Sequence record: MK327932.1
Source of the DNA: Escherichia phage vB_EcoM_G2248
Reading direction: 5' to 3' (one strand)
DNA: 64,000 bases
A program made the translations under genes and the position numbers. Every line of letters starts with the position of its first letter. Position 1 is the first letter of the stretch. The notes beneath the pieces are model-generated. The model saw nothing but the letters and a program-made list of their open reading frames with translations, did not search any database and was not told the DNA's origin. Positions 50,154-57,600 of the stretch are shown piece after piece.

Positions 50154-50478
50154 CTTTTTGTTCCATGAAAAGCGGTGCTGTTTCTTCTTTCAGTTTAATA
50201 ACTAGCGCGGAAACTTCATCAAGAAAATCTTTTTCCATATGAGCAAGCATTGATTTAGAATCTTTGATGACTTTCAAAGAATATTCACTTAGATTTCCTT
50301 TTCCTAACAATAATGCGGGATACACACTATGTGGGATCTCGATTTCGTGATATTCGCTCATAGTATAATATTTGTGAATTTTTAAATCTATATTTCTTCG
50401 TTGTACGTCTACATCAGCAATGACATACAGAAGTTCGATTTTATCACTTTTCTGGGAAAGGGTAGCATTCAAAAACAT
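50149..50478 (-). CDS. Hypothetical protein (109 aa)
   Basis: ORF after a PeSL cassette. Confidence 0.45.
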   Translation of the reverse strand: MFLNATLSQKSDKIELLYVIADVDVQRRNIDLKIHKYYTMSEYHEIEIPHSVYPALLLGKGNLSEYSLKVIKDSKSMLAHMEKDFLDEVSALVIKLKEETAPLFMEQKG

Positions 50479-50535
50479 TGTTAATCCTCCGTTGTTTCGA
50501 TGAGTTCATTATACATTACCTCGCCAACATGTCAA
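50479..50535 (-). promoter_or_regulatory. PeSL-like early promoter cassette
   Basis: Minus strand: TTGACA ... -10-like element, leader, RBS. Confidence 0.5.
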
Positions 50536-50558
50536 CACCTTTTTCATAAATTTTTAGG

Positions 50559-50578
50559 CAATAAAAAAGCCTCCCCGA
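50559..50578 (-). terminator. Rho-independent terminator after gene 32 (minus strand)
   Basis: GCCTCCC-TTCG-GGGAGGC followed by TTTTTT on the minus strand. Confidence 0.65.
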
Positions 50579-50597
50579 AGGGAGGCTGTAAAATTCA

Positions 50598-51545
50598 TTA
50601 CATCGCTAACAGAGAGTCCAGGTCATCCAGATCAGAAGCGGAGGAAGTACCGCCACCCAAGTCCAGAGATGCCATCAGGTCATCAGCGGAAGAATCGGAC
50701 GCTGTGCTAGTTGCGGTAGTACCAGCGTCGAATGCATTCATCTGTGCATCAAAATCATCAAGCTGGCTGTTAATCGCTGCCGCAGCACCAGAAGCCGAAG
50801 CACCAGCTACCAGGCTTACACCTTTAACTTTCTTAAATTTAGCATCCAGTTCCTCGAAAGATTTAAACTGGTCTTTTGCTACGATAACATCAATATCTAC
50901 CATGTTTTCGAACAGATATTTCTGGAATGCTTCATCTTCGATGTTCGGAATCGCTGATTGCTGCATGAAACGTGAATCATCGTAGTTCAGGAATTTATCT
51001 ACTTTCTTAGCTTTCAGAAGGAAGTTAGCGCCTTCGAACGGACATACGATGTTTACAGGTTTTTCGCCCAATTCCGTGTTTACGTTGCTCATTGCCAGAA
51101 TCTTGTCATAAATTTTCTTACCGAAGCGGAATTTAAATACTTTACCTTCGTTTTCCGGCGCTTTCGGATCTTTCATTACCAGAATGTTTGCGAAGTAAGA
51201 AGATTTACGCTTAACATCTTGATATTCTTTATTGTTGGTGTTGTACAGGTCATTTTCGCTAATGTATTTGCACACAGGGCAAGAATCAAAATCGCCGTGG
51301 GTGCTAGGGCAGTTTTCCCAATAATACTTACCATTTACTTTGAAAGAATGGTTTACAAGGTTGATGATCGGTAAACCGTCTTCGGTGCGTGCTGGAAGAA
51401 AACGAATCACCGCTTCACCGTTACCCGCCGCGTCAGTTTTAATCTTCCACTCTTTCGGATCTTCTTTGGAGAAGCCGTTGCTACCTTTCAGTGCTGCCAG
51501 TTGAGCTTGCAGTTTGGAAGAATCTTGACGACGAAAAATGTTCAT
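50598..51545 (-). CDS. 32: Single-stranded DNA-binding protein gp32
   Basis: Aligns with T4 gp32 (GNG.AVIRFLP, zinc site H...[27 protein letters not shown]); start at MNIFRRQ with GAGG RBS; acidic Ser/Asp-rich C-terminus. Confidence 0.9.
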
Positions 51546-51611
51546 AATTATACCTCTTTTATACATTAACTATTAATTTGCTAGATTATTATACAGATTT
51601 AAATTTACTTG

Positions 51612-52292
51612 TCAACTATTTGTTTCGGCTTTTAATTGAGATATTTCTTTACACTCTTTAACTACTTTAACAAATAATGCTCTTGCTTTTGCGGCGTCAA
51701 TAACAAGTAGTTTCTTGTACGCCTTCATTTTAACACTATAAGTTTGCCAAATCAAGTCTTTGGCTACCTTGTCGTGTTCGTCGATTATATTTAGAAAGCT
51801 ATCTAACAACATAAACGACTCAAACGATATAATCCGATTTTGCAGTAGTTTAAAGATACCGCTAGTTTCGGTTGCGGGATTGTATGTAATTAGCTCTTTA
51901 AGAGTAACCCCGCGTTTCTCGGAGAAGTATACCAGACTTTTAATGTCATCGTCAAATCTTGTTGCTGCATCGGTTATCTTTCCTATGTATTCCATATAAA
52001 AGCCGTATGCGTCAACATCAGTGATTTCACCTACCCATGCATCGGTATTAGCTACCAGATTGCTTAGGAATAGGAAGTATAATTCTCTTAGATTGTACTT
52101 ATCCGCTAATTTCGCGAAATAATACTTATCTCTGCGTTTATTGAATGCGGCATCAGATAACCGCATCCTCCAATTATATTTTACGCAATCATAACGCCCG
52201 TTCATATGAGCTTTCATCATGCAATATAACATATACACAGATTTAGCATTAATTCGCATATCTGGATCTGGAGGAAGACGGTTTCTGATCAT
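51612..52292 (-). CDS. 59: Helicase loader gp59
   Basis: Aligns with T4 gp59 (KSVY.LY.M.K.HMNG.YD..KYNW.MR.SDAA..KRRDKY.F.KL). Confidence 0.85.
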   Translation of the reverse strand: MIRNRLPPDPDMRINAKSVYMLYCMMKAHMNGRYDCVKYNWRMRLSDAAFNKRRDKYYFAKLADKYNLRELYFLFLSNLVANTDAWVGEITDVDAYGFYMEYIGKITDAATRFDDDIKSLVYFSEKRGVTLKELITYNPATETSGIFKLLQNRIISFESFMLLDSFLNIIDEHDKVAKDLIWQTYSVKMKAYKKLLVIDAAKARALFVKVVKECKEISQLKAETNS

Positions 52293-52301
52293 ACATACCC
52301 C

Positions 52302-52571
52302 TTAAATATCGAGAGTGTTGGTCGGTTCGTCGATCACTCCCTTCCTGAGCGTTCTATTTACTATACATTCTTGTGTGATCTTGTCAATAATGGACACCGG
52401 AATATACTTCTGATAGTGACCATATTCTATAGAGTTTTCCTCTACAAACTGCGTTGTCGCTTCAAGATAAGTCAATCCCTCTTCAACAACCAGTTTTTCG
52501 ATTGCAAGACCGTTTGCTGTTTTATTCGCGGCTTTTACCGCATGTTCATTAAGCATTGAACACCCGATCAT
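52302..52571 (-). CDS. 33: Late transcription co-activator gp33
   Basis: C-terminal half aligns with T4 gp33 (YLEATT.F.EENSI ... NTLD). Confidence 0.75.
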   Translation of the reverse strand: MIGCSMLNEHAVKAANKTANGLAIEKLVVEEGLTYLEATTQFVEENSIEYGHYQKYIPVSIIDKITQECIVNRTLRKGVIDEPTNTLDI

Positions 52572-52824
52572 AGAGTTCTACCGCTTCGTCGCGTTCTGCT
52601 TCGAAGGTTTCGCGCTGTTGTTGGTGATACAGTTTAAACAGAATGCCCCACATTTTACCATCTACGCCTAATTCTTCTTTAGCACGCTGTTTGATCTCTT
52701 TGATCTTATCGCCATATGCTTCTTGAATTGTTTTCTGATCGCTGGCTTCTTTAATCAGTTGTGCCAGGGTATTTCCGTGTACTGCTTCGTCAAATACTAC
52801 TTTTTCTTTTTTCTGTTCAGTCAT
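52549..52824 (-). CDS. dsbA: DsbA-like dsDNA-binding protein
   Basis: 91 aa (T4 DsbA is 89 aa); assigned by position between 33 and rnh. Confidence 0.5.
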   Translation of the reverse strand: MTEQKKEKVVFDEAVHGNTLAQLIKEASDQKTIQEAYGDKIKEIKQRAKEELGVDGKMWGILFKLYHQQQRETFEAERDEAVELYDRVFNA

Positions 52825-52828
52825 AATA

Positions 52829-53428
52829 TTAACCCTCTTTCGTCATTAATTGAAAACCACGTTCAGCTTTTGAGATTTCGCTAGGACTTAAATCATCGCC
52901 GACATATTCTAGCATCATTTCTCGGATAATGTCAAGTGCTTTTTCATCACCTGATTTTAACTCGAACTCAAGTTCATAATGAGCAGTGTCGCCCATTCCT
53001 TCGCCTACTTTGCCATAATAGAAAGTGTCTTTGCACATTTCCACTATACCGCAACCCATATCTAGAGTCAATGACTTGCGATATGTCATTACTTGCATTA
53101 TTGTAGTGATATAGTCGGAGTTTACCCCTAGACTATCAATAAAATGGACGAACTCATCCCAATTTGAAAATGTCATTTCCTCGCGGTTGAATATTCCAGA
53201 TTCATTATCACCCATTTTGACCATGATCTCTGATTTTCTACAGTCAAGTCGTGCATAAATTCCTTTTTGACGTAGTGCATGGTCTTCGGTGTCATAATAA
53301 AAATCGTGTTTTAATATGTTATCACGGTCTACGAGATTGTACCCGTCATACATTGCCACCCACAAATCACAGATTGTTTCTACACCATCCTGTGAATGGG
53401 CATAGTATTTTAATTCAAGTTCTTTCAT
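52829..53428 (-). CDS. CYTH-like (triphosphate tunnel metalloenzyme family) protein
   Basis: N-terminal E-x-E-x-K (ELELK), central Arg/Lys residues, C-terminal acidic strand YELEFELK; size 199 aa is typical of CYTH domains; no T4 gene occupies this position. Confidence 0.5.
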   Translation of the reverse strand: MKELELKYYAHSQDGVETICDLWVAMYDGYNLVDRDNILKHDFYYDTEDHALRQKGIYARLDCRKSEIMVKMGDNESGIFNREEMTFSNWDEFVHFIDSLGVNSDYITTIMQVMTYRKSLTLDMGCGIVEMCKDTFYYGKVGEGMGDTAHYELEFELKSGDEKALDIIREMMLEYVGDDLSPSEISKAERGFQLMTKEG

Positions 53429-53438
53429 ATGTCAACCC

Positions 53439-54386
53439 TTAGAACTCACCAATTTTCTGCAACATTTTAACTAACGCATTTGTTACAAAATAGTTATAAA
53501 TTTTACCGCGTGGTGCTGGTTTAGACTTTTCCCATGACTCCAGAATCTGAGTCTGAATATCATCTGGGATGTAATCGAAATCAATAAGTTCGCGGTTTTC
53601 GTCAAAGCGTCGTGATTCTTCCTCTGTCATCAAAGACTTTGGATCTTCGGCATCGAAAATTTGCTCTAACCATTTGGTCGCAACTGGTTTAGCTCGCTCC
53701 CCTTCCAGTCGAGAGATAATAAAATCACTACGACATTTGACAGAGGCTACACCGTCTTTTGCGTCACCCTTAACACATTTTACCATAAGGTCTTTGTAAG
53801 GGCTACCATATTTGCATTTCTTCCATGCTTTCTGTACTGGCGCCCACTGTTTCACGTTTTTGTATTTGTGCAACTGTGTGTAGTCACCATCGCCGGAGTT
53901 GATCAGTACCTGGCGACCTTCTACAGAAAACTTTTTAGTTAATACAGCGATTATATCATCTGCTTCAACTTTGTCAACCTTAATAACGTGATAAGGCATG
54001 TTCTCTTTAAACTCTTCGGTGATCTTATTGATCGCAGCAAAGATCATCTCCCAATCACGCGGATCTGCGTCTCGTTTTTCCTTACGGTTGCGTTTATAGT
54101 AAGGGGCGATATCACGTCGCCAGTAACCTTTGCTTGAATCAAAAGCAAGTACCGTAATAGGGTATTGCTCTTTGAATTTTGTCATATTATAACGCATGGT
54201 GTCAAGAATAAGATGACGGATCATACCTTCACTAATAAGGTCTTCCGGTTTAAAGGTATGCGAGATAGTAGCAATCATAAGCTGAGACATATCAATCAAA
54301 TGCACACCTTCCGGCAGTTTATCTTCTGGATCATCGAAGAAATCATTAAGTGTAGCGGTAGTTTTTGTAAACGGGTTATACGTCAT
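53439..54386 (-). CDS. rnh: RNase H (5'-3' exonuclease, FEN family)
   Basis: Aligns with T4 RNase H (GYWRRD.A.YYK.NR, DDIIAVL.KKFS.EG, VKQWAP, PRGKIY.YFV). Confidence 0.85.
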   Translation of the reverse strand: MTYNPFTKTTATLNDFFDDPEDKLPEGVHLIDMSQLMIATISHTFKPEDLISEGMIRHLILDTMRYNMTKFKEQYPITVLAFDSSKGYWRRDIAPYYKRNRKEKRDADPRDWEMIFAAINKITEEFKENMPYHVIKVDKVEADDIIAVLTKKFSVEGRQVLINSGDGDYTQLHKYKNVKQWAPVQKAWKKCKYGSPYKDLMVKCVKGDAKDGVASVKCRSDFIISRLEGERAKPVATKWLEQIFDAEDPKSLMTEEESRRFDENRELIDFDYIPDDIQTQILESWEKSKPAPRGKIYNYFVTNALVKMLQKIGEF

Positions 54387-54388
54387 AA

Positions 54389-54574
54389 TTAAGTTCTCTC
54401 CACTCTCACAACAACAGTCTCATCAAACGAGTTAGATACTTCACGATCATACCCGTATTTCTCCATAACACGCAGAATTGCATTGTTTAGTTCTGCGCGA
54501 AAATAATTGTAATCCTTATCAGGGATTCTGTCAACTACCCATTTTGCACCGTCTGACAAATCAACTTTAACCAT
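54389..54574 (-). CDS. Small hypothetical protein (61 aa)
   Basis: ORF upstream of rnh with start/stop overlap. Confidence 0.4.
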   Translation of the reverse strand: MVKVDLSDGAKWVVDRIPDKDYNYFRAELNNAILRVMEKYGYDREVSNSFDETVVVRVERT

Positions 54575-54612
54575 AATATATCATCCTCTTTTGTTTCTAT
54601 CAAGCCTCATTT

Positions 54613-54620
54613 TATAAATA
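54613..54620 (+). promoter_or_regulatory. T4-type late promoter (TATAAATA) for gene 34
   Basis: Exact TATAAATA about 29 nt upstream of the gp34 ATG. Confidence 0.6.
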
Positions 54621-54648
54621 TGAACATACTATAAAAGGAGACCCAATA

Positions 54649-57600
54649 ATGGCAGATTTTTCTCAACATTTCAAGGCCACATTTGGCTTTGATGCTGGTA
54701 ATGAAAAGGTCGTCAATGTAGCATTGGCTGATAAGAATGTCAACACCGATGCGGTCAACGTTGAATTTTTCAATTACCATAATGGTATTACTCAGTATGA
54801 CACAACTCGCGGTTATGATCAATACGGAACTACAATCCATCAAAACCGTCCGTATTATGCAAAAGAAGATATCACAAAGCCAGCAGGTGACTTTGACCCG
54901 ACTAAATGGCAAGCACTGCGCACGGACCCACGTTGGGATTATGTTGCAGCAACTTCCGGCGATACTCCTTTAAAGTCCGGTGATTATATCGCAGCGGACT
55001 GTCAGTTTGCAAACTTAACATTCTCAATGCCTACTAATCCGGCAGAGGGCGACACTATAACAGTGAAAGATATCGGTGGCAAGTGCGGTGTTAATGAGTT
55101 ATCGTTCCTTGCGGCTGGTCATGAGTTCTATCATAACGGTGTGGTAAACAACCGCAAATGGTACTGTACTACCCCTTATGCAATGAACTACTTCATTTTT
55201 GTTCGCAATCGCTGGCACGTTTACCAGACGGGAACAGAGCCGCGCGGGGTATATGCACAGCCGTCTATTGATCCGATTCAGATGCAAAACGGTGATCAGG
55301 TATTCCGTCGTAGTTCTTTAGGTAACATCGTTTTGATGCTTCCTAAATTTGCTAATAACGGTGATATGATTCAGACTACCGACCTTGACGGATTGACTGC
55401 AACCAACCATGTTACGGTAAAAGTGCATGAAGGTGCGCAAGAACAATCAATCGGTACTTTCGGGTTAAAAGAAATTGTTGGTAAGCGTAGCGGTCACGGC
55501 GTATTCATCTTTGACAAGCCGGAAAACTTATGGCGTGTGTGGGATGGTGATCAGTCAGTTCGCTTGAATCCAATCATTGATGATACTCGCTTATCCCCCA
55601 ATAGCTATGTTGCTGTATTTGGTGATCATGATGTTACTCTGACATTACCGACTAACGTAGAGCCTGGCGATCGTATCCAAGTTTCTATGCAGTATATGCA
55701 CGGAAACCAGACCTGCCGAATCATTACCGCCGCAGAAGATACAAAAATTCTTATGCAGAAAAACATGGTTCAGTTTCCTAAGCGTAGCGAGTACCCATTC
55801 AATGGGACCGATACATGGACGGAAGTGTCTGAATTGTCTTTCAACGCTGCAAATGATTATGTACCTTATCTGGAGTTCTCTTATTCAGAAGGTGATGATG
55901 GTAAGAAACACTGGTTGGTGGCACATGCTCACCCGATTGTAGAACGAGTAGATCCGACTCGTAAAGATCGTGTTGGTGTAATTGCACTGGCTACCCAGGA
56001 TGAAACAAACAAAAACCATGAAGATAATCCTAGCGACGAAGTTGCGGTGACTCCAAAGGTTCTGGCTAACAAAACAGCCAACGAGACTCGACGCGGTATT
56101 GCTCGCATTGCGACTCAAGCGGAAACGCATCAAGATACTGGTTCCAGCTTCCTGGATGATGTTATCGTTACACCTAAAAAGTTAAATGACTGTGTTGCTA
56201 CCGAAGCCCGTCGTGGTGTGATGGAAATTGCAACTCAGCATGAAACCAACGAAGGTTTAGACGATACTCGCGCAATCACTCCTAAGAAGTTAGAAGAACG
56301 TCGCGCGTCCGAGGATCTTGCTGGTATCGCTGAAATTGTTCAGGTAGGCGGTAATGCTGCCGCTCGAAGGGGTGAAGCTGGCACGGGGATCTATAACATC
56401 AACGACCACGCTAAAATCGTTACTCCGCAAAACATCAACGAAGTTAAAGCTACTGAAACTTCTCGTGGTGTTGGGTATCTGGCAACTGACGCGGAAGTGC
56501 AAGGGGCTACTGAATCAACCCCGCAAGATGCATTGCTGATCACTACTCGCACGTTAACTAAGCGTATTGCTACCGAATCACGTACTGGTATCGCTGAAAT
56601 TGCAACTCAGGAAGAAACAAACTTAGGTCAAAGTGATAACCATATCATCACGCCTAAAAAGCTACATACTCGCCGTGCAACTGAAACTTTACACGGTTTA
56701 GCAGAAATTGCAACTCAACCGGAGTTTGACGCAGGTCGTGACGATGCTCGCATTTCTACCCCATTGAAGATTAAAACCTTCTTTGAGAATGCACAGCGTT
56801 TGAAAGTAGATCCGACTCAGGGGCTTAACCTTACTGGTGACTTGTGGCAGGGTATCATGATCAGCGGTCTTGATGCAACCGAAGATACAAAAGGTGTCGC
56901 GAAAGTTGCAACTACTCAGCTTACGGACGCAGGAGAAGATGACGCTACGATCATTACTCCTAAAAAGCTGCAAGGCAAAAAGGCCACCGAAGGTAAAGAA
57001 GGTATTATCCGAGTTGGTACTCAAGCCGAAACCGTCGCTGGTACTATGGACAATGTAGCAATTTCGCCTAAAAACTTCAAGTATGTTGCGCAGACAGAAG
57101 AGTCATGGCAAGCAACGGAAGCCCGTCGCGGATTCCTGAAAGTAGCAACACAAGAAAACTGTTTTGTTGGTGACAATCTGCAAGGTTCTACTCAAGATCT
57201 CGATAACTATCAGCATGATGGGATTGCAGTAACTCCGAAAGGATTAAACTACGCACTTGCTAATTTCTTACCTAAGATGGCAACAGCCCAGAATAGTTTG
57301 AAATTGGGTAACGTAGAGGCCGCTAAATGGGCGCGTAGAGACATTGATCAGACCATCGAGAGCAATTACACGTTTAATAAAAACGTCAACGTGAAGGGCG
57401 ATTTAGAGTGCTTAAAATCAGGTTCCTTTGAAACTCTGTATGTGACTAAAAACTCTACTGACGATCCAAGTAATGGTCATCTGGTATTGGGTGAGCGTGG
57501 AGTTGATGGTCACACCGGAATTACATTGCATGGTACTACCCTGTCAGAAGGTATGGAAAACTCATGGTCTATTATCGTTGGTGGTACTGGTACGGCGCAA

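What the first reader, a model, noticed from the sequence alone, without database searches (positions are those of the whole stretch)
52829..53428. CYTH-like gene inserted between dsbA and rnh
In T4 the order is 33-dsbA-rnh with no intervening gene. Here a 199-aa ORF in that slot has hallmarks of the CYTH family (CyaB adenylyl cyclase / thiamine triphosphatase / triphosphatase): N-terminal ELELK (E-x-E-x-K), conserved basic residues, and a C-terminal YELEFELK acidic strand. A phage-encoded triphosphate-acting enzyme in the replication/early region could hydrolyse or synthesise a nucleotide signal. The specific role is speculative.
Basis: partly seen in the sequence, partly recalled or inferred. 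Interest (0 to 1): 0.65.

Follow-up and report, generated by a model that had tools for sequence, protein, structure and literature searches.

The report
Phage triphosphate-tunnel (CYTH) enzyme gene
The ORF is a real CYTH-family gene that RB49-like (Krischvirus) phages carry between rnh and dsbA; it most likely encodes a metal-dependent triphosphatase rather than an adenylate cyclase, the domain call was already published in 2006, and its substrate and role in infection are still unknown.

Summary

The window is a Krischvirus (RB49-like) phage and the gene is RB49ORF244c. Its CYTH hit was published in 2006, and a few GenBank records call it "adenylate cyclase" or "inorganic triphosphatase".

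- **Distribution:** all 58 Krischvirus records carry it, as do three diverged metagenomic relatives in the same position next to dsbA. Six other T4-like lineages have rnh directly abutting dsbA.
- **Active site:** every residue shown to matter in YgiF is invariant in the family members.
- **Not a cyclase:** all three published class IV adenylyl cyclase determinants are absent.
- **Family-specific tunnel lining:** Y58-x-R60-x-D62 replaces small-x-R-x-R, and Lys40 is unique to the family. This suggests a substrate other than plain triphosphate, but that is inference.
- **Mosaic gene:** codons ~10-150 are deeply diverged between phages whose flanks are 96-98% identical. dN/dS is 0.2-0.3, so there is no sign of positive selection.

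It is an ordinary but uncharacterised member of a known enzyme family. Interest is modest.

The parts
52829..53428 (-). CYTH / triphosphate-tunnel metalloenzyme gene, 199 aa, equivalent to RB49ORF244c and phrog_14893
   Evidence: ORF. Pfam PF01928 E 6.1e-8, full length. PHROG 14893 E 1e-132. AlphaFold pLDDT 92.2. YgiF is the top structural match. RB49 annotation.
53408..53422 (-). ExExK motif, E3-L-E5-L-K7. E3 and E5 are predicted ligands of metal 2 and correspond to YgiF E4/E6.
   Evidence: Translation. The columns are E/E/K in 143 of 147 other CYTH proteins. Invariant in the 45 family members that cover this position. Role taken from PMC4641920.
53291..53311 (-). Strand beta2, K40-H-D42-F-Y44-Y-D46. 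It carries the family-specific Lys40 and the DxY water-placing motif.
   Evidence: K40 is present in 45/45 family members and is K in 0/147 other CYTH proteins. The DxY motif is described in PMC8233210.
53243..53257 (-). Y58-A-R60-L-D62. R60 is the catalytic Arg (YgiF R56). D62 replaces the second Arg of the RxR motif. Y58 occupies the position of the stacking Trp53 of thiamine triphosphatase.
   Evidence: 157-sequence alignment. hhalign. Family counts. Motif definitions in PMC8233210. R56 mutagenesis in PMC4641920.
53216..53218 (-). Lys71, corresponding to YgiF K69 (substrate binding, and orients the first Glu)
53177..53185 (-). R82-E-E84, a conserved basic and acidic pair on strand beta5
   Evidence: R in 143/147 and E in 144/147 other CYTH proteins. 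Invariant in the family.
53015..53041 (-). Strand beta7, E130-M-C132-K-D134-T-F136-Y-Y138. E130 and D134 are conserved. F136 and Y138 are family-specific bulky residues where other CYTH proteins have Gly and Ile/Val.
52955..52981 (-). Acidic strand H150-Y-E152-L-E154-F-E156-L-K158. E154 corresponds to YgiF E160 (metal 1) and E156 to YgiF E162 (metal 2).
52844..52882 (-). C-terminal plug helix with the S186-K187-x-x-R190-G191 motif
   Evidence: Helix 187-195 in the model. K187 is K in 147/147 and R190 is R in 131/147 other CYTH proteins.
52981..53399 (-). Mosaic, deeply diverged core of the gene (about codons 10-150). It has no blastn-level similarity to phage Skers, although the flanks are 96-98% identical.
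53439..54386 (-). rnh (T4 RNase H / 5'-3' exonuclease), the upstream neighbour, probably in the same transcription unit
   Evidence: Pfam RNaseH_C E 4e-39 and 5_3_exonuc_N
52549..52824 (-). dsbA (late-transcription dsDNA-binding protein), the downstream neighbour, starting 4 nt after the CYTH stop codon
   Evidence: Pfam Phage_DsbA E 5e-22

Best explanation
The ORF encodes a stand-alone, YgiF-like CYTH / triphosphate tunnel metalloenzyme. It is a fixed gene of the Krischvirus (RB49-like) lineage and sits in the leftward rnh-CYTH-dsbA-33-59 gene string.

**Proposed mechanism (inferred by homology to YgiF, AtTTM3 and SaTTM).**
- The closed beta-barrel binds a triphosphate group together with a divalent metal, held by Glu154 (site 1).
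- Arg60 polarises the beta-gamma bridging oxygen.
- The conserved basic residues Lys7, Lys71, Arg82, Arg117, Lys158, Lys187 and Arg190 are the likely phosphate ligands.
- The products are orthophosphate plus the diphosphate form of the substrate. The enzyme does not make cAMP.

**Substrate (weaker inference).** The tunnel lining differs consistently from other CYTH proteins. Asp replaces the second Arg of RxR. Lys40 is new. Bulky residues Tyr9, Tyr58, Phe136, Tyr138 and His150 stand where relatives have other, mostly smaller, residues. I therefore infer that the preferred substrate is not simply inorganic triphosphate. It may be a triphosphate carrying an organic group, nucleotide-like or thiamine-like, that stacks on Tyr58.

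**What is shown and what is not.** Shown: the gene, family, fold, conserved catalytic set, distribution and mosaic evolution. Inferred: catalytic activity, the class of substrate, and early transcription by read-through from upstream promoters. The biological role is unknown.
For: **Family and fold.**
- Pfam CYTH above the curated threshold, matched full length.
- AlphaFold model with pLDDT 92.2 and pTM 0.85. It has nine strands plus a C-terminal plug helix, the published TTM topology.
- Foldseek against PDB: YgiF 5a60, E 5.9e-12, TM 0.78; every other significant hit has the triphosphate-tunnel fold (mostly TTM/CYTH enzymes, plus non-enzymatic Mediator Med18/20).
- hhalign of the phage clade against YgiF-like CYTH: probability 99.94%, E 4e-37.

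**Catalytic residues.**
- The YgiF residues needed for catalysis are E4, E6, R56, K69, E160 and E162 (PMC4641920).
- They map to E3, E5, R60, K71, E154 and E156.
- All are invariant in every family member that covers them.
- Predicted tunnel-facing positions stay 65-81% identical in relatives whose helices have dropped to 3-50%.
- dN/dS is lower for tunnel codons (0.07-0.17) than for the rest of the core (0.17-0.30).

**Not a cyclase.** The HFxxxxExExK motif is impossible because ExExK sits at residues 3-7 with a stop codon two codons upstream. The first Arg and the second Glu of ExE are both retained.

**Fixed gene in a fixed slot.**
- 58 of 58 Krischvirus records carry it.
- Diverged metagenomic relatives P0043, P0044 and P0045 lie immediately upstream of dsbA-33. 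In P0043, whose contig extends that far, the gene is also directly downstream of rnh.

**Family-specific tunnel lining.** K40 is in 45/45 family members and 0/147 others. D62 is in 44/45, where others have R in 143/147. Y58 is in 42/45. F136, Y138, H150 and Y9 are also family-specific.
Against: - No biochemical or genetic data exist for this protein or any close homologue (literature searches).
- I could not inspect model coordinates. "Tunnel-facing" was therefore assigned from strand parity, not measured.
- In AtTTM3, mutating the second Arg had little effect on triphosphatase activity. The R-to-D change therefore need not alter specificity, and the protein could be an ordinary inorganic triphosphatase.
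- NCBIfam and PADLOC give no hit, so there is no curated functional family to lean on.
- The single-sequence PDB search was insignificant (E 0.97 for YgiF). Significance comes only from profiles and structure.
Confidence: 0.75

Rival explanations
1. It is an ordinary inorganic triphosphatase or short-chain polyphosphatase. It would do the same job as host YgiF, but without the polyphosphate-binding CHAD domain.
For: - YgiF is the closest solved structure by a wide margin. It is also the only PDB sequence found by the family profile.
- All YgiF catalytic residues are kept.
- The second Arg of RxR was dispensable for PPPi hydrolysis in AtTTM3.
- Some GenBank records already use this name.
Against: - The family consistently replaces the otherwise near-universal second Arg with Asp. 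That removes positive charge from a site that binds a highly anionic ligand.
- It adds aromatic residues in the tunnel, including one at the position thiamine triphosphatases use for stacking.
- The host already has YgiF, so the benefit to the phage is unclear.
Confidence: 0.3
2. It is a class IV (CyaB-type) adenylyl or nucleotidyl cyclase that synthesises a cyclic nucleotide signal. Several GenBank records annotate it this way, and the first reader offered it as one option.
For: - CYTH is the family that contains CyaB. The fold search also returns class IV cyclases (2fjt, 3n0z), though with weaker scores.
- GenBank labels of "adenylate cyclase" appear in KMB43, AV108 and PHB13.
Against: All three determinants defined by Vogt et al. 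2021 (PMC8233210) were tested and are absent.
- There is no HF motif four residues before ExExK, and no room for one.
- The first Arg (R60) is retained rather than replaced by a small residue.
- The second Glu of ExE (E156) is retained rather than replaced by Ala.

Confidence: 0.04
3. It is an RNA 5'-triphosphatase. It would act on 5'-ppp ends, for example RNA primers of Okazaki fragments that the neighbouring RNase H removes, or transcripts.
For: - The gene lies 10 nt downstream of rnh in the replication gene cluster.
Against: - The protein belongs to the CYTH branch with a C-terminal plug helix. In that branch the group attached to the alpha phosphate points toward the plugged end, which leaves little room for an RNA chain.
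- There is no hit to the Pfam mRNA_triPase family.
- T4 and other relatives manage without such a gene.
Confidence: 0.07
4. It is a catalytically inactive binding protein or sponge for a triphosphorylated ligand, or a decayed remnant.
For: None directly. The only basis is that no activity has been measured.
Against: - All metal-binding glutamates and the catalytic Arg are invariant in every family member that covers them, down to members so diverged that only about 3% of helix positions are unchanged.
- dN/dS is 0.07-0.17 on tunnel codons.
- The gene is intact in 57 of 58 isolate genomes. Only G2494 shows a split match.
Confidence: 0.04

Closest known systems
E. coli YgiF (PDB 5a60/5a61), N-terminal CYTH/TTM domain; an inorganic triphosphatase
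   Same: - Same strand and helix order, including the plug helix with the SKxxRG motif.
- Same two-metal catalytic set: E4/E6/R56/K69/E160/E162 correspond to E3/E5/R60/K71/E154/E156.
   Different: - No CHAD domain: 199 aa against 433 aa.
- The second Arg of RxR (R58) is Asp62.
- Leu is replaced by Lys40.
- Gly, Gly, Val and Ile are replaced by Tyr58, Phe136, Tyr138 and His150.
- Only about 21% identity, so this is not a recent copy of the host gene.
Mammalian 25-kDa thiamine triphosphatase (PDB 3bhd, 5a64)
   Same: - Single-domain CYTH enzyme of about 200 aa.
- An aromatic residue two positions before the catalytic Arg (the W/YxRxR motif). In the mouse enzyme this residue stacks on the thiazole ring. 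The phage protein has Tyr58 at that position.
   Different: - The phage motif is YxRxD, not W/YxRxR.
- Two diverged relatives have Val or Ile instead of Tyr.
Class IV adenylyl cyclase CyaB (Yersinia pestis 2fjt, 3n0z)
   Same: CYTH fold and the ExExK motif.
RB49ORF244c / PHROG 14893, the same gene in published Krischvirus genomes
   Same: Orthologue, 84-97% identical among isolates, in the same slot between rnh and dsbA.
   Different: None in kind. The window carries the Phi1/ECD7-type allele rather than the RB49-type allele.

Membership tests
CYTH / triphosphate tunnel metalloenzyme superfamily (Pfam PF01928) | Profile match above the curated threshold across the whole domain | tested here: met
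   E 6.1e-8, 33.1 bits against 23.2, residues 1-191 on profile positions 1-178 of 179. hhalign probability 99.94% against YgiF-like CYTH.
CYTH / triphosphate tunnel metalloenzyme superfamily (Pfam PF01928) | N-terminal ExExK motif on strand beta1 | tested here: met
   E3-L-E5-L-K7. Invariant in the family.
CYTH / triphosphate tunnel metalloenzyme superfamily (Pfam PF01928) | Antiparallel beta-barrel tunnel fold with a C-terminal plug helix | tested here: met
   [not shown]
CYTH / triphosphate tunnel metalloenzyme superfamily (Pfam PF01928) | Acidic ExE strand near the C-terminus that supplies the ligands for metal 1 and metal 2 | tested here: met
   E152-L-E154-F-E156 aligns with YgiF E158/E160/E162. 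Present in 46/46 family members.
CYTH / triphosphate tunnel metalloenzyme superfamily (Pfam PF01928) | Metal-dependent hydrolysis of a triphosphate substrate | not testable with these tools
   This needs an enzyme assay.
Hydrolytic TTM (triphosphatase) subclass as defined by Vogt et al. 2021 | Catalytic first Arg of the xRxR motif is retained | tested here: met
   R60 lies in the column that is Arg in 145/147 CYTH proteins and aligns with YgiF R56.
Hydrolytic TTM (triphosphatase) subclass as defined by Vogt et al. 2021 | Second Arg of the xRxR motif | tested here: not met
   Asp62. It is D in 44/45 family members and N in one. Other CYTH proteins have R in 143/147.
Class IV adenylyl cyclase (CyaB-like, AC-IV) | HFxxxxExExK extension that stacks the adenine base | tested here: not met
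   ExExK starts at residue 3, and an in-frame TGA lies two codons upstream of the ATG. Motif definition.
Class IV adenylyl cyclase (CyaB-like, AC-IV) | First Arg of xRxR replaced by a small residue (Val, Cys or Leu) | tested here: not met
   R60 is retained in 45/45 family members.
Class IV adenylyl cyclase (CyaB-like, AC-IV) | Second Glu of ExE replaced by Ala | tested here: not met
   E156 is retained in 46/46 family members.
Thiamine triphosphatase (ThTPase) subclass | W/YxRxR motif, with the aromatic residue stacking the thiazole ring | tested here: inconclusive
   The aromatic Tyr58 is present in 42/45 family members, but the motif reads YxRxD. The structural match is weaker than to YgiF.
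YgiF-type CYTH-CHAD inorganic triphosphatase | C-terminal CHAD (polyphosphate-binding) domain | tested here: not met
   The protein ends at residue 199, right after the plug helix, and has no other Pfam domain.
Cet1-like RNA triphosphatase (Pfam PF02940) | Profile match to mRNA_triPase | tested here: not met
   [not shown]
Known anti-phage defence or counter-defence protein families | Match to a PADLOC model, or a published anti-defence role | tested here: not met
   No PADLOC hit. No paper links a phage CYTH protein to defence.

The most novel reading that the evidence does not exclude
The enzyme could be a phage-specific hydrolase for an organic triphosphate that the stressed or infected host accumulates.

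**Candidate substrates.**
- Thiamine triphosphate or adenosine thiamine triphosphate. E. coli makes these under amino-acid starvation or energy collapse, and no microbial hydrolase for them is known (PMC8615392).
- A triphosphorylated alarmone.
- A triphosphorylated immune nucleotide.

In this reading the YxRxD and Lys40 tunnel would be the specificity determinant. The patchwork of anciently diverged surface alleles would reflect an interaction with a variable host factor.
Probability: 0.12. Interest if true: 0.7.

Novelty: new member of a known kind. Interest (0 to 1): 0.3.

Why it matters
If the prediction holds, T4-like phages of one genus keep a dedicated triphosphate-cleaving enzyme inside their replication and late-transcription gene block. 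Finding its substrate could reveal a small molecule that matters during infection. CYTH enzymes in general still lack clear physiological roles.

Practically, the analysis corrects the "adenylate cyclase" labels now spreading through phage genome records. It also gives a short list of residues to mutate: E5, R60 and E154 for activity, and K40, Y58 and D62 for specificity.

As it stands, this is an uncharacterised member of a well-known enzyme family whose domain identity has been in the literature since 2006. It is useful but not surprising.

Tried and rejected
- **Single-sequence PDB search.** The best hit was a T6SS immunity protein "TriTu" at E 0.14, with YgiF at E 0.97. I rejected the TriTu hit as chance. 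Profile and fold searches gave only tunnel-fold proteins.
- **HMMER profile-to-YgiF alignment.** It placed Tyr58 opposite the catalytic Arg56 of YgiF, which would have meant a missing catalytic residue. A 157-sequence alignment and hhalign show this was a two-residue shift: Arg60 is the catalytic Arg. I rejected the "catalytic Arg lost" reading.
- **NCBIfam and PADLOC.** No hits.
- **Rfam on 50400-54800.** Nothing relevant, so no RNA element explains the conserved gene ends.
- **Base composition.** The gene is 38% GC, like its neighbours, so there is no signal of recent foreign origin.
- **IMG/VR scan.** Only three near-identical loci, so no new context.
- **Positive-selection idea for the hypervariable core.** dN/dS is 0.2-0.3 and dS is saturated. 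The pattern is old alleles moved by recombination, not demonstrable diversifying selection.
- **Literature searches.** No functional study of a phage CYTH protein. There is only a 2006 domain listing and a one-line suggestion for jumbo phages that CYTH triphosphatases might degrade unmodified NTPs (PMC7824862).
- **Nudix link, considered but not tested.** Nolan et al. note that RB49 lacks nudE. I did not test whether the CYTH gene substitutes for it.

Full report
**What is there.** Window 52829-53428 on the minus strand is an ATG-initiated ORF of 199 codons.
- Its ATG lies 10 nt after the stop codon of the upstream gene, in the context TAAGGGTTGACATATG. An in-frame TGA two codons upstream rules out a longer N-terminus.
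- Its stop codon lies 4 nt before the next ATG.
- Pfam identifies the neighbours as T4-type RNase H (53439-54386), DsbA (52549-52824), gp33 and gp59. gp32 follows by position.

**Which genome.** The region is 95-97% identical to RB49-like coliphages of the genus Krischvirus; the best match is UPWr_E1 at 97.3%.
- The ORF is the orthologue of RB49ORF244c, whose GenBank note already reads "similar to ... ygiF".
- Nolan et al. 2006 list "RB49ORF244c, CYTH domain, 0.0026" in their table of Pfam hits (PMC1524935).
- Most of the 58 public records call the gene hypothetical. A few say "adenylate cyclase" or "inorganic triphosphatase".
- PHROGs holds it as family 14893, function unknown.
- The CYTH assignment is therefore correct but not new.

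**Is it an insertion?**
- DsbA homologues occur in 1420 phage records. The CYTH gene occurs in 58. This equals the number of records with more than 95% identical DsbA, and also the number matching the whole 33-to-rnh segment.
- rnh directly abuts dsbA in six other lineages. These are a Tequatrovirus whose genes are cross-referenced to the consecutive T4 proteins NP_049857 to NP_049859, a Dhakavirus, phage S13, a Slopekvirus, a Biquartavirus and Acinetobacter phage Ac42.
- Three much more diverged relatives came from metagenomic contigs: P0043 at 47% identity, and P0044 and P0045, which were found only by a profile search.
- All three lie immediately upstream of dsbA-33. In P0043, whose contig extends that far, the gene is also downstream of rnh.
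- The gene is therefore an old, fixed resident of this slot in one clade of T4-like phages. Its GC content (38%) matches its neighbours.

**Family and fold.**
- Pfam CYTH is matched end to end at E 6.1e-8, 33.1 bits against a cut-off of 23.2.
- An exhaustive profile search of 1.8 billion representative proteins found only three close relatives. After those came about 200 weak hits to ordinary CYTH and CYTH-CHAD proteins. The phage family is thus small and isolated.
- An AlphaFold model built on 14 family sequences is confident (pLDDT 92.2, pTM 0.85). It shows nine strands, interspersed helices and a C-terminal helix at 187-195. This is the published tunnel-plus-plug-helix topology.
- Foldseek against the PDB puts E. 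coli YgiF first (E 5.9e-12, TM 0.78). Other hits follow: triphosphate-tunnel enzymes, thiamine triphosphatases, class IV cyclases, Vtc polyphosphate polymerases, RNA triphosphatases and Mediator Med18/20, which share the fold.
- YgiF is also the only PDB sequence found by the family profile.

**Active site.**
- Martinez et al. 2015 showed how YgiF works. Glu160 binds metal 1 together with the substrate. Glu4, Glu6 and Glu162 bind metal 2, which activates the attacking water. Arg56 is required for catalysis, and Lys69 helps bind substrate (PMC4641920).
- The first HMMER alignment to YgiF put Tyr58 opposite Arg56, which would have meant a dead enzyme. A 157-sequence alignment and a profile-profile alignment (probability 99.94%) show this was a two-residue slip.
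- The correct correspondence is: E3/E5/K7 to E4/E6/K8, R60 to R56, K71 to K69, E154 to E160, and E156 to E162.
- All of these, plus R82, E84, R117, K187 and R190, are invariant in every family member that covers them.
- Positions predicted from strand parity to face the tunnel remain 65-81% identical in relatives whose helices have fallen to 3-50% identity. These positions also have lower dN/dS, 0.07-0.17 against 0.17-0.30.
- This is the pattern expected for a working enzyme.

**Which activity.** Vogt et al. 2021 give three sequence determinants that separate true class IV adenylyl cyclases from hydrolytic CYTH enzymes (PMC8233210).
1. An HF motif four residues before ExExK.
2. A small residue in place of the first Arg of xRxR.
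3. Ala in place of the second Glu of ExE.

The phage protein fails all three. ExExK is at residues 3-7 with a stop codon just upstream, R60 is kept and E156 is kept. The "adenylate cyclase" labels in GenBank are therefore unsupported, and hydrolysis of the terminal phosphate is the expected chemistry.

**Family-specific tunnel lining.** The same paper notes that thiamine triphosphatases have an aromatic residue two positions before the first Arg (W/YxRxR) that stacks on the thiazole ring. Other CYTH clusters have a small residue there.
- The phage family reads Y58-A-R60-L-D62. Tyr is present in 42 of 45 members.
- Asp62 is present in 44 of 45, where 143 of 147 other CYTH proteins have Arg.
- Lys40 is present in 45 of 45, and Lys never occurs at that position elsewhere.
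- Phe136, Tyr138, His150 and Tyr9 stand where relatives have Gly, Ile/Val, Ile and varied, mostly aliphatic or polar, residues.
- I read this as a remodelled substrate pocket with less positive charge and more aromatic surface. That would suit a triphosphate carrying an organic group better than bare PPPi.
- This step is inference. I could not view model coordinates. In AtTTM3, mutating the second Arg barely affected triphosphatase activity.

**Evolutionary pattern.**
- Compared with phage Skers, the flanks are 95.7% and 97.8% identical at the DNA level. About 420 nt in the middle of the CYTH gene have no blastn match at all.
- Protein identity to Skers is 57% for CYTH, against 97% for RNase H and 99% for DsbA.
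- Against RB49, CYTH is 84% identical (RNase H 98.7%, DsbA 100%). The divergence is concentrated in codons 61-140, so the breakpoints differ from those seen with Skers.
- Synonymous divergence is several-fold higher than in the neighbouring genes: 0.39 and 1.15, against 0.05-0.21. dN/dS is 0.2-0.3.
- This indicates old alleles exchanged by recombination inside a homogenised block. It is not demonstrable positive selection.
- All alleles keep the same tunnel residues.

**Expression (inferred).**
- The gene string ORF246c-rnh-CYTH-dsbA-33-59 is tightly packed on one strand and diverges from gene 34.
- Sigma-70-like promoter matches are enriched on that strand. One perfect consensus lies inside rnh at 53977-53950.
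- A strong terminator follows gene 32.
- No promoter lies directly upstream of the CYTH start codon in a position to transcribe it. It is therefore probably co-transcribed with rnh and dsbA.

**Biological role.**
- No paper reports any experiment on this or any phage CYTH protein.
- The only published suggestion I found concerns jumbo phages, where CYTH triphosphatases might degrade unmodified NTPs (PMC7824862).
- There is no PADLOC match.
- Candidate substrates remain speculative. One option is thiamine triphosphate or AThTP, which E. coli accumulates under starvation or energy collapse and for which no microbial hydrolase is known (PMC8615392). Others are triphosphorylated alarmones and the PPPi released by dNTP triphosphohydrolases.

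**Verdict.** This is a distinct phage subfamily of a well-known enzyme family. The domain call has been in the literature since 2006, and the function is untested. Interest is modest.

Noticed in passing
window 50598-51566 (-), gene 32: The gp32 allele in this window is itself divergent. It is 78.6% identical (aa) to RB49 and 79.6% to Skers, while RB49 and Skers are 97.5% identical to each other. dS is about 0.55. This is a second mosaic gene in the same otherwise near-identical block.
   Followed up: partly
window 54389-54574 (-): A 61-aa ORF (equivalent to RB49ORF246c; phrog_3594, unknown function; no Pfam hit) lies between gene 34 and rnh. The six other T4-like lineages examined have no gene in that slot.
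   Followed up: partly
window 50400-54800, minus strand: Sigma-70-like promoter matches are enriched: 27 found against 12.2 +/- 3.5 expected, nearly all on the coding strand.
- Perfect TTGACA-16-TATAAT matches lie at 53977-53950 (inside rnh), 51615-51588 (upstream of gene 32, matching RB49's annotated early promoter) and 50535-50508.
- One match at 53435-53407 has its -35 element in the rnh/CYTH spacer and its -10 element in CYTH codons 6-7.
- Another at 52935-52906 lies in the conserved 3' end of CYTH, about 75 nt upstream of dsbA.
   Followed up: no
window 54613-54620 (+): A T4-type late promoter motif, TATAAATA, lies 29 nt upstream of the gene 34 ATG at 54649.
   Followed up: no
window 50568-50587 (-): A strong intrinsic terminator (8-bp stem with 6 GC pairs, followed by TTTTTAT) lies immediately downstream of gene 32. 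It probably ends the leftward transcription unit.
   Followed up: no
L002 (phage Skers) 5802-6398; PQ306574.1 (phage vB_EcoM_PTE-Eco09, not fetched as a locus) 107917-110210: Some Krischvirus genomes carry an HNH homing endonuclease gene between genes 59 and 32, or close to this block. Such elements could drive the local gene-conversion tracts seen in CYTH and gene 32.
   Followed up: no
MK327935.1 (phage vB_EcoM_G2494) 146593-147185: In this one isolate the CYTH match is split into two pieces and annotated as two hypothetical proteins. This suggests a frameshift or a sequencing error in that record.
   Followed up: no
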